Of a stretch of 26,413 nucleotides of DNA, positions 12,001-15,000 are shown piece after piece. Numbering within the stretch: the stretch's first letter is position 1; each line of letters starts with the position of its first letter. A program made the position numbers. Source of the DNA: a virus (lineage: Duplodnaviria; Heunggongvirae; Uroviricota; Caudoviricetes). The stretch is from the IMG/VR virus record IMGVR_UViG_2778261064_000014, one strand, 5' to 3'.

Positions 12001-15000
12001 TGGAGCCAGCTCCAGCAATGCAGGGACATCCCTGATCGTTGGCTCAACATGAGATTTCATGAAATCTTCTGCCGCAGAATCTGTTGGCTGAAAAAGCAGA
12101 CTGTTACGGGATTTATGCTCAATAAAATAAGCCTCCACCCCCAACAGCATTTTAGTGTAACCAACGCGCGCCGATTTAATCAGATTAACGGTGCGGATCC
12201 GGTCATTTCCCATGCTGTTCATAATGGCAACCTGAAACGGCAGGGTTTCCCATTGTCCGGGAGTGTATGAAGATTCTTTCGGCAGATAATAATGTTGATC
12301 AGCCCACTGAACCGTCGTCAGTGGAACCGGAATATTGAGAGATAAAAGCCCTGTAGCTATCGCACCGGCTGCATTAGCTGCCTTCTGTGCGTCTGAAATC
12401 ATCAATCCACCTGCCCACGTTTTCACCGGCTTTAGCTGCAACATTGGAGGCTTTCGCGATTTCAGTTTTCACCACATCAAGGTGTGACGGTGAAATATCC
12501 GGATATTTACGCTGTAATGTCAGCGGCACACGTACAAGTATCCCCGAAATCTCCTGTGCCACACGTTGCAGAATGAAGGTAAACAATTCCGTTTCCAGCA
12601 CCAGCCCTTCTTCACGGGCATTTTTCATCTCCTGTGCGTCAGCCTGTGCTTTGGTGAGCCGGTAGCGTTCATAGTCAATGGTGCCGGGTTGTAAATCTGA
12701 TTCTGCAGCCGCACGCAAATCTTCCAGTTCTTTGCGGAGCTTTTCGTTTTCGATATCTTTTTCCCGCTGCGCATACCACTCAATGGCTTCTGCAGTATTG
12801 AACATGGCCTCGATACCTTTGCCTCCCCCCGACAAAACTCTCAGCCCCTGACTTTGCCAGCCAGTGATTGTTCTGACATCGCGCTCAAAAATCTCTGCCA
12901 GTTTCTTTTTGTTAACCTTCACGGCACATATTCCTCACAAAAAGAAGAAAGGATCTCAAAACGCTTTTTTCAGCGAAAAATCACCGCTGCCAGATCCTTT
13001 CTTTTTTTAATAAAGCCCTATTAAACAACAGGTTATCCAGAAGAAGAACGGATCTGCTTTTTCCCTGAAAATTTTCATAAATAGCGCGTTTTTGCGCGTC
13101 TGCCGTCCCCCGGTGTTTCAGGTTATGGAAAGGACCCGCGGAAATAGGAGCAATTATCATTTACGCACACTCTAATACCTGCATTATCGCAGCCCCTCAC
13201 CATAAAGGGCTGCTGTAATGCCCGTTACTCAGTAACGACCGCGCCTTTCGGTAATTCCATACCAGCAAATACCGGACAACCAGGATGACGAACATCTTCT
13301 GTTGCTTCCAGCATTGACTCACCAAACCACTCCGTCATGGCGCGACCATCAGCTGCTTTGTAGTGGATCAAGTACTGGTTTTCGCCATCCGCATACTGCG
13401 CGCGGGCTTTAACCTCACCCCATTCATCACTGATGCGCATCTCCACCAGTTGAGACAACTCAAACTTGAACGGAGCAGCATCAGCACCAATTACAATCGG
13501 TTTATTTTCTGTTTTTTCCATCATCGTCTCCCGATATCAAAGCCCGTCGCCGCACCGGGCACTGATCAACATTTGAGTATTCGCGGCGACAGAAAGAATT
13601 TATTTTATTGAGCAGCTACAAACACAGAATTTCATGCTTTCCGGACGCTGACGCATCCTTCATTTTTCAGCAAAATATTCTGCTCCTACAGGCGATCAGT
13701 TCTGCATACACTGTCGGACACTGTCGACAATTTCACAGACCAGAGAAACTGTATCGAAAATCTGGCGCGCCTTATCCAGGCTGACGCATCCCGCCAATAA
13801 AAAAGGCACCAGTATCGCCACCAGTGCCCATTTCGCCGCCGTTCGCAGCATTCTGTGTGTCCAGTGTTTTCGCGTCATATCACCACCAACGCCCGGCCCA
13901 AATCAGAACAGCGACCGCCACAAGGCGGATTGCAAAGGCCGTTGCCCGAATAAAATCAGCACTCATCTGTTTAAATAAATTGTTGTGTATGCAACCAGTG
14001 CAGTACAAATAATCCATGCAACTGGCGTCAGTATATGTCTGATGCCCCGGCATACCGCGATGATTTTTGCGGCATCATCAGCCCCCTGCGGGGTGGTTTC
14101 TGCTTTTATCATCAGATCATCTCCAAATTTATCTTTCGTCGTGTTAGGCTTTACTGGCATGAATGATCCCCATGCGCATTCACAAAATGAATCCATAAAC
14201 ACAAAGCCCCGATTGCTCCAACAACCGGGGTTTTGCTTTACTTATCGTTTCAACTGAAAGTGAGGCCCGTCCTTCAACGTTTTCCAGTCCCCGCCCCATT
14301 CGATGGGGGTATTCAGCTCTTTCGCTGCCTGCTTAAATGCCTGCGCGATTTTCTCGTACAGAGGCCAGTCCCATGACACCTGGCTGCCAACCCAGGCAAC
14401 AACATCCACCGCATCACCGGTCAGGTGGCGGCTGTTCATGGTCTGGCTCTTGCCTTCTGCAACCAGTTGTTTCTGGCGTTCTTTCGTGCGCAGACCTTCC
14501 GTAATACCGAAATCAACCTCCGTCAGCTCCAGCGCACGGCGAACGACAGCAACCAGCTGTGGTTTTACGCCCTCCAGATTTTTCTCGCTCCGACGGCTGA
14601 ATCTGAATTTACCCGACATACTCACCTCCGTAATGAAAGGATTTTTGAAACGTTCCCACGTGCACGAATCACCAGCACGCAGAACAGCAGATTAAGCCCC
14701 ACCGCCAGCCAGTTCGCCGCTAACGGACGACCACACAGATAGCTGAGTGGCGCAAAGGCATAAAGCAGCATCAGCAGCCAGGCCAGCCATGACATCAGCG
14801 GTTTATGTCTGGAATCACAGCGACGATAAAAAAAGAGCGTCAGCACGATAACCGTGCATAACGCCACATTCAGCAATCCGGGAAGGTTACTTAACATTGC
14901 CGCCTCCTCCACCCCGCAGGCGGGAGAACAGGCCGGACACCAGTGATGCGATATCCTGCTGGTGGATGAACGACAGAATCTTCACCGACACCACGGATAC

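What the first reader, a model, noticed from the sequence alone, without database searches (positions are those of the whole stretch)
13696..14237. No recognisable Rz/Rz1 spanin pair; a terminator, a C-tail-anchored peptide and a tiny lipoprotein occupy that position
Downstream of the endolysin, where lambdoid phages normally encode i-spanin and o-spanin, there is a bidirectional-looking terminator, then an ORF with only a C-terminal TM helix, then a 60-aa lipoprotein with an LLAGC lipobox but no proline-rich periplasmic region. I translated the other minus-strand frames of 13880-14240 and found only short stop-rich segments. Either the spanin function is provided unconventionally, or these are unrelated accessory genes.
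Basis: partly seen in the sequence, partly recalled or inferred. Interest (0 to 1): 0.4.

Follow-up and report, generated by a model that had tools for sequence, protein, structure and literature searches.

The report
Lone small lipoprotein replaces phage spanin
In this toxin-carrying prophage, the two genes that normally break the bacterial outer membrane at lysis (Rz/Rz1) have been swapped, at exactly the same gene junction, for a single tiny outer-membrane lipoprotein with no inner-membrane partner, which points to a still untested third way for phages to open the outer membrane.

Summary
Downstream of the M15 endolysin (all on the minus strand) lie a strong two-way terminator hairpin, a 65-aa tail-anchored protein and a 60-aa lipoprotein. 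There is no Rz/Rz1 or unimolecular spanin anywhere in the 26-kb window.

Comparison of 116 sequences splits the region into three parts:
- **Lipoprotein:** it is the constant last gene of this lysis cassette. It sits 17-18 nt after, or overlaps, two unrelated endolysin types, in lambdoid and Mu-like phages.
- **28-aa peptide:** it is a shortened member of an abundant 37-aa family. In 933W-like and Yersinia prophages this peptide sits 1 nt upstream of canonical Rz/Rz1. DNA homology between the two cassette types stops exactly at the downstream ATGA, so the lipoprotein is a positional replacement for Rz/Rz1.
- **65-aa protein:** it is an optional insertion.

No locus carries both an intact lipoprotein and Rz/Rz1. 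Phage GER2, which has Rz, keeps only a decayed copy.

SpaninDB already lists the phiP27 orthologue as an o-spanin. Its paired "i-spanin" is an antisense shadow ORF. The function is inferred, not tested.

The parts
14197..14239 (-). Two-way intrinsic terminator: A-tract, 10-11 bp G+C-rich hairpin (stem 14207-14230), T-tract. It lies immediately after the endolysin stop codon.
   Evidence: Terminator scan and folds on both strands. The same element, with compensatory stem changes (CCCCGG/CCGGGG, CCCCAG/CTGGGG, CCCGTTTG/CAAGCGGG), follows the endolysin in lipoprotein-type and Rz-type cassettes. It is absent where the lipoprotein directly abuts the endolysin.
13963..14160 (-). p65: a 65-aa tail-anchored membrane protein (cytoplasmic residues 1-42, TM 43-61). 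It is an accessory insertion of unknown function.
   Evidence: All 5 variable sites among 3 distinct DNA versions fall at codon position 3. It is called by PGAP as WP_040079722.1. It is present in 11 of 85 cassettes. The Salmonella homologue (74% identity) lies after a SASA/DUF6645 tail protein and is ATGA-coupled to a DUF1353 gene. No Pfam, NCBIfam or PADLOC match, and only E>0.1 PHROGs hits.
13880..13966 (-). p28: a 28-aa single-TM peptide. It is a 5'-truncated member of the 37-aa peptide family that precedes outer-membrane-disruption genes. Its ATG overlaps the p65 stop (ATGA), and its stop lies 1 nt before the lipoprotein ATG.
   Evidence: Variable sites by codon position are 1/3/8. The upstream extension of the 57-aa ORF varies 6/1/1, so it is not coding in that frame. 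PGAP calls the 28-aa form in some genomes. The same peptide sits 1 nt upstream of Rz in L101-L107.
13696..13878 (-). A 60-aa prolipoprotein: n-region MTRKHWTHRMLRTAAK (+5), h-region WALVAILVPFLL, lipobox LLAG|C31, Val+2 (outer-membrane sorting). The mature part is a 30-aa helical peptide, net charge -1, no proline, with Cys48 and Cys57 conserved in every intact homologue examined. It is the candidate outer-membrane-disruption protein.
   Evidence: It is the only lipobox ORF in the window. Variable sites are 17/20/38 with no internal stop in 38 distinct DNA versions. AlphaFold2 predicts a helix (pLDDT 70). It equals the SpaninDB phiP27 o-spanin.
13794..13829 (-). Terminator-like hairpin plus a T-run inside the lipoprotein gene (codons 17-28, the signal-peptide h-region).
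   Evidence: Found by the terminator scan. It is more stable than 99.35% of 2000 synonymous recodings. It is conserved in Citrobacter and Lelliottia homologues but absent in the Mu-like L094. Synonymous sites in codons 17-26 are almost invariant. Its function is untested.
14242..14619 (-). Context: M15 (L-alanyl-D-glutamate peptidase type) endolysin.
   Evidence: Pfam PF13539 at E 8.7e-12, and phrog_465 endolysin at E 1.2e-75.
14622..15279 (-). Context: two overlapping holin-family genes (Phage_holin_3_7 at 14622-14912, or 14897 by the PGAP start; Phage_holin_8 at 14887-15279).
   Evidence: Pfam PF05449 at E 5.5e-21 and PF16931 at E 4e-23. PHROGs 217 and 198, both holin.

Best explanation
The finding covers the 3' end of a phiP27-type lysis cassette: holin, holin, M15 endolysin, terminator, p65, p28, lipoprotein.

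Shown:
- The lipoprotein is the one invariant gene after the endolysin in this cassette family.
- It sits at the very junction where related cassettes carry Rz/Rz1.
- No inner-membrane spanin partner is encoded in the window or in phage phiP27.
- p28 belongs to a widespread 37-aa membrane-peptide family that also precedes Rz/Rz1.
- p65 is optional.

Inferred:
- The lipoprotein is made late, from Q-antiterminated transcripts that read through the terminator, and its translation is coupled to the gene upstream.
- It is exported by Sec, lipidated and cleaved at Cys31, and sent to the inner leaflet of the outer membrane by Lol, because residue +2 is Val.
- There its 30-residue amphipathic helix forms disulfide-linked oligomers through the two conserved cysteines.
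- Once the endolysin has removed the cell wall, it breaks the outer membrane without any tether to the inner membrane. It is too short to span the periplasm: about 4.5 nm as a helix.

Whether it damages the membrane directly or through a host factor (for example phospholipase OmpLA, as colicin lysis proteins do) is open. p28 and p65 are not required partners. p28 may only serve translational coupling or lysis timing. p65 is an inserted accessory gene.
For: Gene order:
- In 27 loci the lipoprotein starts 17-18 nt after the M15 endolysin.
- It overlaps or abuts GH108 endolysins (L080, the Mu-like L094, L096/97), and lies 4 nt after an M15 endolysin that follows a lambda-S-type holin (L093).

Replacement of Rz/Rz1:
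- The Yersinia cassette is hol8, hol3, GH108, terminator, p37, Rz with an embedded Pro-rich Rz1. The 933W-like cassette is S, R, terminator, p37, Rz/Rz1. Both share the junction TGGTGGTGAtATGA with the window.
- blastn homology ends at that ATGA.

Mutual exclusion:
- 106 loci have the lipoprotein and none of them has Rz/Rz1. The 7 Rz loci have no lipoprotein.
- GER2 has p37 and Rz, plus a lipoprotein remnant with three in-frame stop codons.

No partner:
- Window and whole phiP27 genome.
- The SpaninDB phiP27 i-spanin is antisense to a conserved 90-aa gene, is cut to 36 aa in L088, and is not called by PGAP.

Real genes: codon-position bias.

Protein features: lipobox, Val+2, conserved Cys48 and Cys57, helix.
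Against: - There is no experiment: lysis function, lipidation, outer-membrane location and disulfide bonding are all inferred.
- The slot between lysis and packaging genes is also a known site for accessory genes, such as lambda bor.
- The sample of loci was collected through the lipoprotein or p37 itself, so the mutual exclusion is biased and covers only about 3 kb of flank.
- No precedent is known to me, or was found in the held literature, for an outer-membrane lipoprotein disrupting the membrane without an inner-membrane partner.
- The mature peptide is slightly acidic, unlike membrane-active cationic peptides.
- One distant locus (L096) has a 144-aa protein with an N-terminal TMD about 245 nt downstream. 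It could be a partner there.
- The signal peptide is more conserved than the mature part. That could mean the functional element is the signal peptide or an RNA hairpin.
Confidence: 0.6

Rival explanations
1. Minimal two-component spanin. The lipoprotein works with a small inner-membrane peptide encoded just upstream (p28/p37, or p65), and the two together bridge or fuse the two membranes.
For: p28 and p37 are single-TM peptides translationally coupled to the lipoprotein, with a 1-nt spacer. About half of the lipoprotein loci carry a p37-family gene (56 of 106). Kongari et al. note that non-canonical anchors might serve as i-spanins (PMC6139136).
Against: The same p37 precedes canonical Rz/Rz1, which has its own inner-membrane subunit. 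The lipoprotein directly follows the endolysin with no peptide gene in 29 of 85 cassettes. p28 has at most 5 residues beyond its TM segment and p65 has 4 (YLNR). Together with a 29-residue lipoprotein ectodomain this cannot span the periplasm. p65 occurs without the lipoprotein in Salmonella.
Confidence: 0.1
2. The lipoprotein is an accessory (moron-type) gene unrelated to lysis, for example superinfection exclusion or surface modification. These phages are then truly spanin-less, and the outer membrane fails for other reasons.
For: There is no homology to any characterised family. The location at the lysis/packaging boundary is a known accessory-gene site (own knowledge: lambda bor). About 13% of surveyed phages have no identifiable spanin (PMC6139136).
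Against: There is no room for its own promoter: it lies 17-18 nt after, or overlaps by ATGA, endolysins of two unrelated families in lambdoid and Mu-like phages. It replaces Rz/Rz1 precisely at the start codon. It has decayed to a pseudogene in the one phage that also has Rz.
Confidence: 0.2
3. The small ORFs are untranslated remnants, and only the terminator matters.
For: The ORFs are very short. Annotators disagree on their calls and starts.
Against: Third-codon-position bias is seen in all three: 17/20/38, 1/3/8 and 0/0/5. None of 38 distinct lipoprotein DNA versions has a stop codon. The p65 protein is identical across loci that differ at 7-11% of nucleotides.
Confidence: 0.03

Closest known systems
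Lambda Rz/Rz1 two-component spanin (Pfam PF03245 and PF06085)
   Same: It takes the same slot in the lysis cassette, after the endolysin and, in many prophages, after the same terminator and 37-aa peptide. The outer-membrane component is a small lipoprotein with periplasmic cysteines.
   Different: There is no inner-membrane subunit. The mature part is helical, proline-free and only 30 residues long, against the 40-residue proline-rich Rz1. Sequence similarity is confined to the signal peptide (hhalign probability 15%).
SpaninDB entry for phage phiP27 (Kongari et al. 2018, PMC6139136): 'separated' spanin pair, the shortest in the database (62 periplasmic residues)
   Same: Its 51-aa o-spanin is the orthologue of the window's lipoprotein, with an internal start.
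   Different: Its 64-aa i-spanin is not present in the window. It appears to be a shadow ORF antisense to a conserved 90-aa gene, so the pair is probably a single protein.
Unimolecular spanin (T1 gp11)
   Same: One polypeptide with an outer-membrane lipoprotein signal does the job.
   Different: gp11 also has a C-terminal transmembrane domain that anchors it in the inner membrane. This lipoprotein has none.
Disruptin (phage phiKT gp28; bioRxiv 10.1101/515445)
   Same: It is a small helical protein proposed to break the outer membrane without spanning the periplasm, and it replaces a spanin.
   Different: gp28 is cytosolic, has no signal sequence and carries a net charge of +7. This protein is an exported lipoprotein with a net charge of -1.
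Colicin/cloacin lysis proteins (bacteriocin release proteins, Pfam Lysis_col)
   Same: From own knowledge: they are very small lipoproteins with a mature part of about 28-33 residues. They sit downstream of a read-through terminator and permeabilise the envelope, and magnesium inhibits this effect.
   Different: There is no Pfam match at E<=1. Dependence on the host phospholipase OmpLA is untested. Those proteins belong to plasmid colicin operons, not phage lysis cassettes.

Membership tests
Two-component spanin (Rz/Rz1 type) | An outer-membrane lipoprotein subunit: lipobox, and no Asp at +2 | tested here: met
   LLAG|C31, Val+2, basic n-region. It is the only lipobox ORF in the window.
Two-component spanin (Rz/Rz1 type) | An inner-membrane subunit with an N-terminal TMD and a periplasmic coiled-coil domain, encoded embedded in, overlapping or next to the lipoprotein gene | tested here: not met
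   No such ORF was found in the window or among the annotated CDS of phiP27. There is no Rz homologue. The SpaninDB candidate is a shadow ORF.
Two-component spanin (Rz/Rz1 type) | The periplasmic domains together are long enough to connect both membranes (62-300 residues in SpaninDB) | tested here: not met
   The ectodomain is 29 residues after the lipid-bearing Cys, with no partner.
Two-component spanin (Rz/Rz1 type) | Sequence homology to Rz1 or Rz families | tested here: not met
   Pfam finds no family. PHROGs Rz-like spanin scores E 0.11, over the signal peptide only. hhalign probability is 15%.
Two-component spanin (Rz/Rz1 type) | Periplasmic cysteines that form intermolecular disulfides | tested here: inconclusive
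   Cys48 and Cys57 (C-x8/9-C) are conserved in the family. Bond formation cannot be tested here.
Two-component spanin (Rz/Rz1 type) | Complements a spanin-defective lysis in the presence of Mg2+ | not testable with these tools
   This needs the lambda Rz-am Rz1-am assay.
Unimolecular spanin (T1 gp11 type) | An N-terminal lipoprotein signal plus a C-terminal transmembrane domain | tested here: not met
   The only hydrophobic segment is the signal peptide (residues 14-32).
Disruptin (phiKT gp28 type) | A small, strongly cationic amphipathic peptide without an export signal | tested here: not met
   Net charge -1, and exported as a lipoprotein.
Colicin lysis protein / BRP (Pfam Lysis_col) | Homology to the family profile | tested here: not met
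   No Pfam family at E<=1.
Colicin lysis protein / BRP (Pfam Lysis_col) | Envelope permeabilisation that depends on host phospholipase OmpLA | not testable with these tools
   This needs a pldA host.
37-aa pre-spanin membrane peptide family (unnamed; P0157/P0189) | The motif D-x2-R-A-x-AFAI[RK]-x-VAV within a single TM segment, ending RWW, with the stop codon 1 nt before the start of the outer-membrane-disruption gene | tested here: met
   p28 aligns over its whole length. The profile search finds the family. The junction is identical. p28 lacks the first ~10 residues of the family.

The most novel reading that the evidence does not exclude
A lipid-anchored 30-residue helical peptide, with no connection to the inner membrane, is sufficient for the outer-membrane step of phage lysis. 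This would be a third class of outer-membrane-disruption protein beside spanins and disruptins. It is carried by hundreds of enterobacterial prophages, including Stx2e, Stx2k, LT-II and SubAB converting phages.
Probability: 0.4. Interest if true: 0.75.

Novelty: new variant of a known kind. Interest (0 to 1): 0.55.

Why it matters
The current model says the outer membrane is opened either by spanins, which physically link and fuse the two membranes, or by a cationic disruptin. A lone outer-membrane lipoprotein that takes the place of Rz/Rz1 at the same junction would not fit either mechanism.

It is directly testable with the existing lambda Rz-am Rz1-am complementation assay. It would also correct a database entry, the shortest "spanin pair" in SpaninDB.

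The cassette belongs to phages that carry Shiga toxin 2e/2k, LT-II and subtilase cytotoxin. Release of these toxins depends on phage lysis, so how these cells burst has practical relevance. The abundant 37-aa peptide that precedes both Rz/Rz1 and this lipoprotein is an unstudied, very common element of E. coli prophage lysis cassettes.

Tried and rejected
- **Profile scans:** Pfam, NCBIfam and PADLOC scans of the three small proteins gave nothing. PHROGs matched only unnamed families or gave hits above E 0.01.
- **Profile search:** a search of 1.84 billion representative proteins with the lipoprotein alignment found only 21 close relatives and no link to a characterised family.
- **Structure:** AlphaFold2 gave one long helix at moderate confidence (pLDDT 70). 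That is too featureless for a fold search, so none was run.
- **Lcc6:** I considered that p65 might resemble Lcc6, the 65-aa lysis factor of Shewanella phage LambdaSo. I rejected this because Lcc6 has an N-terminal TM and a cytoplasmic tail, which is the opposite layout.
- **Longer ORFs:** I considered the 57-aa ORF and the 79-aa ORF as the real genes. I rejected both on codon-position patterns, homologue alignments and the overlap with the terminator.
- **phiP27 i-spanin:** I considered the SpaninDB phiP27 i-spanin as a partner and rejected it.
- **Failed look-ups:** tblastn of the 37-aa peptide against phage records returned nothing, probably because of the low-complexity filter, so a DNA search was used instead. 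The original phiP27 paper (PMC127862) is not held. A 2025 paper on Stx2e holins does not discuss the genes downstream of the endolysin.
- **Literature:** searches found no experimental work on this lipoprotein.
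Full report
**Setting.** The window is a prophage related to the Stx2e phage phiP27 (91% DNA identity over the lysis region). Its late genes lie on the minus strand, in this order:
- three tRNAs (17939-18185)
- a subtilase cytotoxin pair, SubA 16046-17077 and SubB 15615-16049
- two overlapping holin-family genes (14887-15279 and 14622-14912)
- an M15 endolysin (14242-14619/14625)
- the region of the finding
- a 99-aa soluble protein (13225-13524)
- the Nu1/gpA-type terminase

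**Observation.**
- *Terminator.* The hairpin is real and strong: stem 14207-14230, -23.5 kcal/mol on the minus strand and -17.9 on the plus strand, with none of 200 shuffles folding as well on either strand.
- *Tail-anchored ORF.* It is a 65-aa protein (13963-14160) with one hydrophobic segment at residues 43-61.
- *Lipoprotein.* It spans 13696-13878 and has a +5 n-region, a hydrophobic core, LLAG|C31, Val at +2, and a 30-residue proline-free mature part with net charge -1.
- *No spanin.* It is the only ORF in the 26 kb with a lipobox. No ORF has the i-spanin layout. tblastn with four Rz/Rz1 queries is negative.
Its ATG overlaps the p65 stop, and its stop lies 1 nt before the lipoprotein ATG. 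PGAP calls it in some genomes.

**Which ORFs are real.** Variable sites among homologous DNA were sorted by codon position:

| ORF | Positions 1/2/3 | Note |
|---|---|---|
| Lipoprotein | 17/20/38 | 38 distinct versions, none with a stop |
| p28 | 1/3/8 | |
| p65 | 0/0/5 | |
| Upstream part of the 57-aa ORF | 6/1/1 | The signature of the overlapping p65 frame, so only the last 28 codons are coding |

The lipoprotein N-terminus (xRKHWTHR) is conserved, including in a Citrobacter copy that lacks the internal Met used by PGAP. The 60-aa start is therefore right.

**The lipoprotein is the constant gene and the rest is variable.** I collected loci through the lipoprotein from a genome collection, viral contigs (274 confirmed, 80 kept) and E. 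coli genomes. The classified cassettes fall into these types:

| Arrangement between endolysin and lipoprotein | Loci |
|---|---|
| M15 endolysin, then lipoprotein after 17-18 nt (no terminator, no small ORFs) | 27 |
| GH108 endolysin abutting or overlapping the lipoprotein | 2 |
| A p28/p37-type peptide between them | 37 |
| of which p65 plus p28, as in the window | 11 |
| Other inserts (two different TM peptides of 48 and 44 aa; a 93-aa protein; in phiP27 a 90-aa gene on the opposite strand) | remainder |

More distant family members keep the rule:
- In L093 the order is a lambda-S-type holin, an M15 endolysin, then the lipoprotein 4 nt later.
- In L096/97 the order is an S-type holin, a GH108 endolysin, then an overlapping lipoprotein.
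- In L094 the same arrangement sits in a Mu-like phage (GemA, Mor, Mu portal).

In the examined loci where an insert lies between endolysin and lipoprotein, it includes the same A-tract/hairpin/T-tract terminator, directly after the endolysin or after an inserted 93-aa gene. The terminator shows compensatory stem changes between lineages.

**Link to Rz/Rz1.** p28 is a shortened member of a 37-aa family (MKGIEVETPASLDLTRAAAFAIRLVAVAVLIWAVRWW). Two of its clusters are each seen on about 1000 contigs.
- In 933W-like E. coli prophages the order is S holin, R lysozyme, terminator, p37, Rz/Rz1 (L101-L104).
- In Yersinia prophages it is hol8, hol3, GH108, terminator, p37, Rz with an embedded proline-rich Rz1 (L105-L107).
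- In both, the p37 stop lies 1 nt before the Rz ATG, in the string TGGTGGTGAtATGA. The window has the same string between p28 and the lipoprotein.
- blastn homology between Rz-type and lipoprotein-type cassettes runs through the terminator and p37 and ends at that ATGA.

The lipoprotein is therefore a positional replacement of Rz/Rz1. None of the 106 lipoprotein loci has Rz/Rz1, and none of the 7 Rz loci has the lipoprotein. The sample is biased and the flanks are short, so this is supportive rather than conclusive. Phage GER2 carries p37 and Rz, and about 750 nt further on has a lipoprotein remnant with three in-frame stop codons.

**Prior record.** Kongari et al. (PMC6139136) list phiP27 as having a "separated" spanin pair, the shortest in their set at 62 periplasmic residues. 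Their o-spanin (record 20706-20861) is the orthologue of this lipoprotein. Their i-spanin (20348-20542; 64 aa, TTG start) maps to an ORF antisense to a 90-aa gene. In L088 the 90-aa gene is intact at 46% identity, while the i-spanin frame is cut to 36 aa. PGAP annotates the 90-aa gene and the lipoprotein, not the i-spanin. No annotated phiP27 CDS has an i-spanin layout. The family is thus best read as a lone lipoprotein.

**How it may work (inferred).**
- *Expression.* It is late, from read-through of the terminator, and coupled to the upstream gene.
- *Targeting.* Export, lipidation at Cys31 and outer-membrane sorting follow from the signal sequence and Val+2.
- *Structure.* The mature peptide is predicted helical: SpaninDB JPred 83%, and AlphaFold2 gives one helix at pLDDT 66-69 in that part. 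It has a hydrophobic stripe (hydrophobic moment 0.54). Two conserved cysteines are spaced 8-9 residues apart, which puts them on different faces of a helix and so favours bonds between chains.
- *Consequence.* At about 4.5 nm it cannot reach the inner membrane, so a fusion mechanism like that of spanins is unlikely. I favour disruption from the periplasmic face of the outer membrane, directly or through a host factor.
- *An unexplained point.* The signal peptide is more conserved than the mature part, and no explanation so far accounts for it. Part of this may reflect a terminator-like RNA hairpin in codons 17-28.

**p65 and p28.** In E. coli, p65 is identical in protein sequence across many prophages and in every context read lies between the M15 endolysin and p28 or the lipoprotein. 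Most cassettes lack it. Its Salmonella homologue lies after a tail protein and is coupled to a DUF1353 gene. I treat it as an inserted accessory gene of unknown role. The insertion removed the 5' end of the p37 gene, leaving p28. p37 cannot be a specific partner of the lipoprotein, because it equally precedes Rz/Rz1.

**Verdict.** The unconventional-spanin reading is well supported for the lipoprotein by comparative evidence, but it is untested. The element is a new variant of a known step in phage lysis. It is already half-recorded in a database under a probably wrong two-component label.

Noticed in passing
L101-L107 (e.g. L102 2501-2614; L105 2501-2614); window 13880-13966: A 37-aa single-TM peptide gene lies between the endolysin and Rz/Rz1 in 933W-like E. 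coli and Yersinia prophages. It is preceded by a conserved terminator, and its stop lies 1 nt before the Rz start. Two clusters are each seen on about 1000 contigs, all named 'hypothetical' or 'putative transmembrane protein' in the source records read. It may be a general, unstudied part of lysis cassettes.
   Followed up: partly
window 13794-13829 (minus strand): A terminator-like hairpin plus a T-run lies inside the lipoprotein signal-peptide codons. It is more stable than 99.35% of synonymous recodings. Synonymous sites there are almost invariant, including a rare ATA codon. It is conserved to Lelliottia but absent in a Mu-like relative.
   Followed up: partly
L001 3516-3710 (phiP27 record 20348-20542): The phiP27 i-spanin listed in SpaninDB is antisense to a conserved 90-aa gene and is not maintained in a relative (L088). 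RefSeq phiP27 does not annotate the lipoprotein. It annotates L32 in another frame over it, and L31 overlapping the end of the endolysin gene.
   Followed up: yes
window 15615-17077: A subtilase cytotoxin pair occupies the slot where phiP27 carries stx2e. SubA scores 525 bits against PDB 2iy9, and SubB scores 170 bits against 3dwa. Three tRNA genes (Arg, Arg, Met) lie upstream at 17939-18185. The pair appears to be a diverged SubAB variant carried on a phage.
   Followed up: partly
L006 3351-4496; L110, L114: In LT-II prophages the enterotoxin A and B genes are inserted between the second holin gene and the M15 endolysin of the same cassette. The toxin cargo therefore sits at different points of one lysis module in different phages.
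   Followed up: no
L116 4285-4482 (phage GER2, record 46784-46981): This is a decayed copy of the lipoprotein gene, with three in-frame stop codons, in a phage that has intact p37 and Rz. It still keeps the GGTGATATGACGCG start junction.
   Followed up: yes
L090-L092 3001-3581: The Salmonella homologue of p65 (67 aa) lies at the end of a prophage after a SASA/DUF6645 tail protein. It is ATGA-coupled to a 125-aa DUF1353 protein, which may be a clue to the function of p65.
   Followed up: no
L096 3461-3895: A 144-aa protein with an N-terminal TMD and a helical soluble domain lies about 245 nt downstream of a distant lipoprotein homologue. It is the only i-spanin-like candidate seen near any family member.
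   Followed up: no
window 13851 vs 13878: PGAP starts the lipoprotein at an internal Met (51 aa). The conserved basic HWTHR segment upstream, and a Citrobacter copy without that Met, indicate that the 60-aa form is correct.
   Followed up: yes
window ~13660-13690; L102 2279-2303; L024 3195-3219: A 25-nt stretch just after the lipoprotein stop (GCAGAATATTTTGCTGAAAAATGA) is 96% identical to the stretch just after the R lysozyme stop in a 933W-like prophage. It may be another recombination joint.
   Followed up: no
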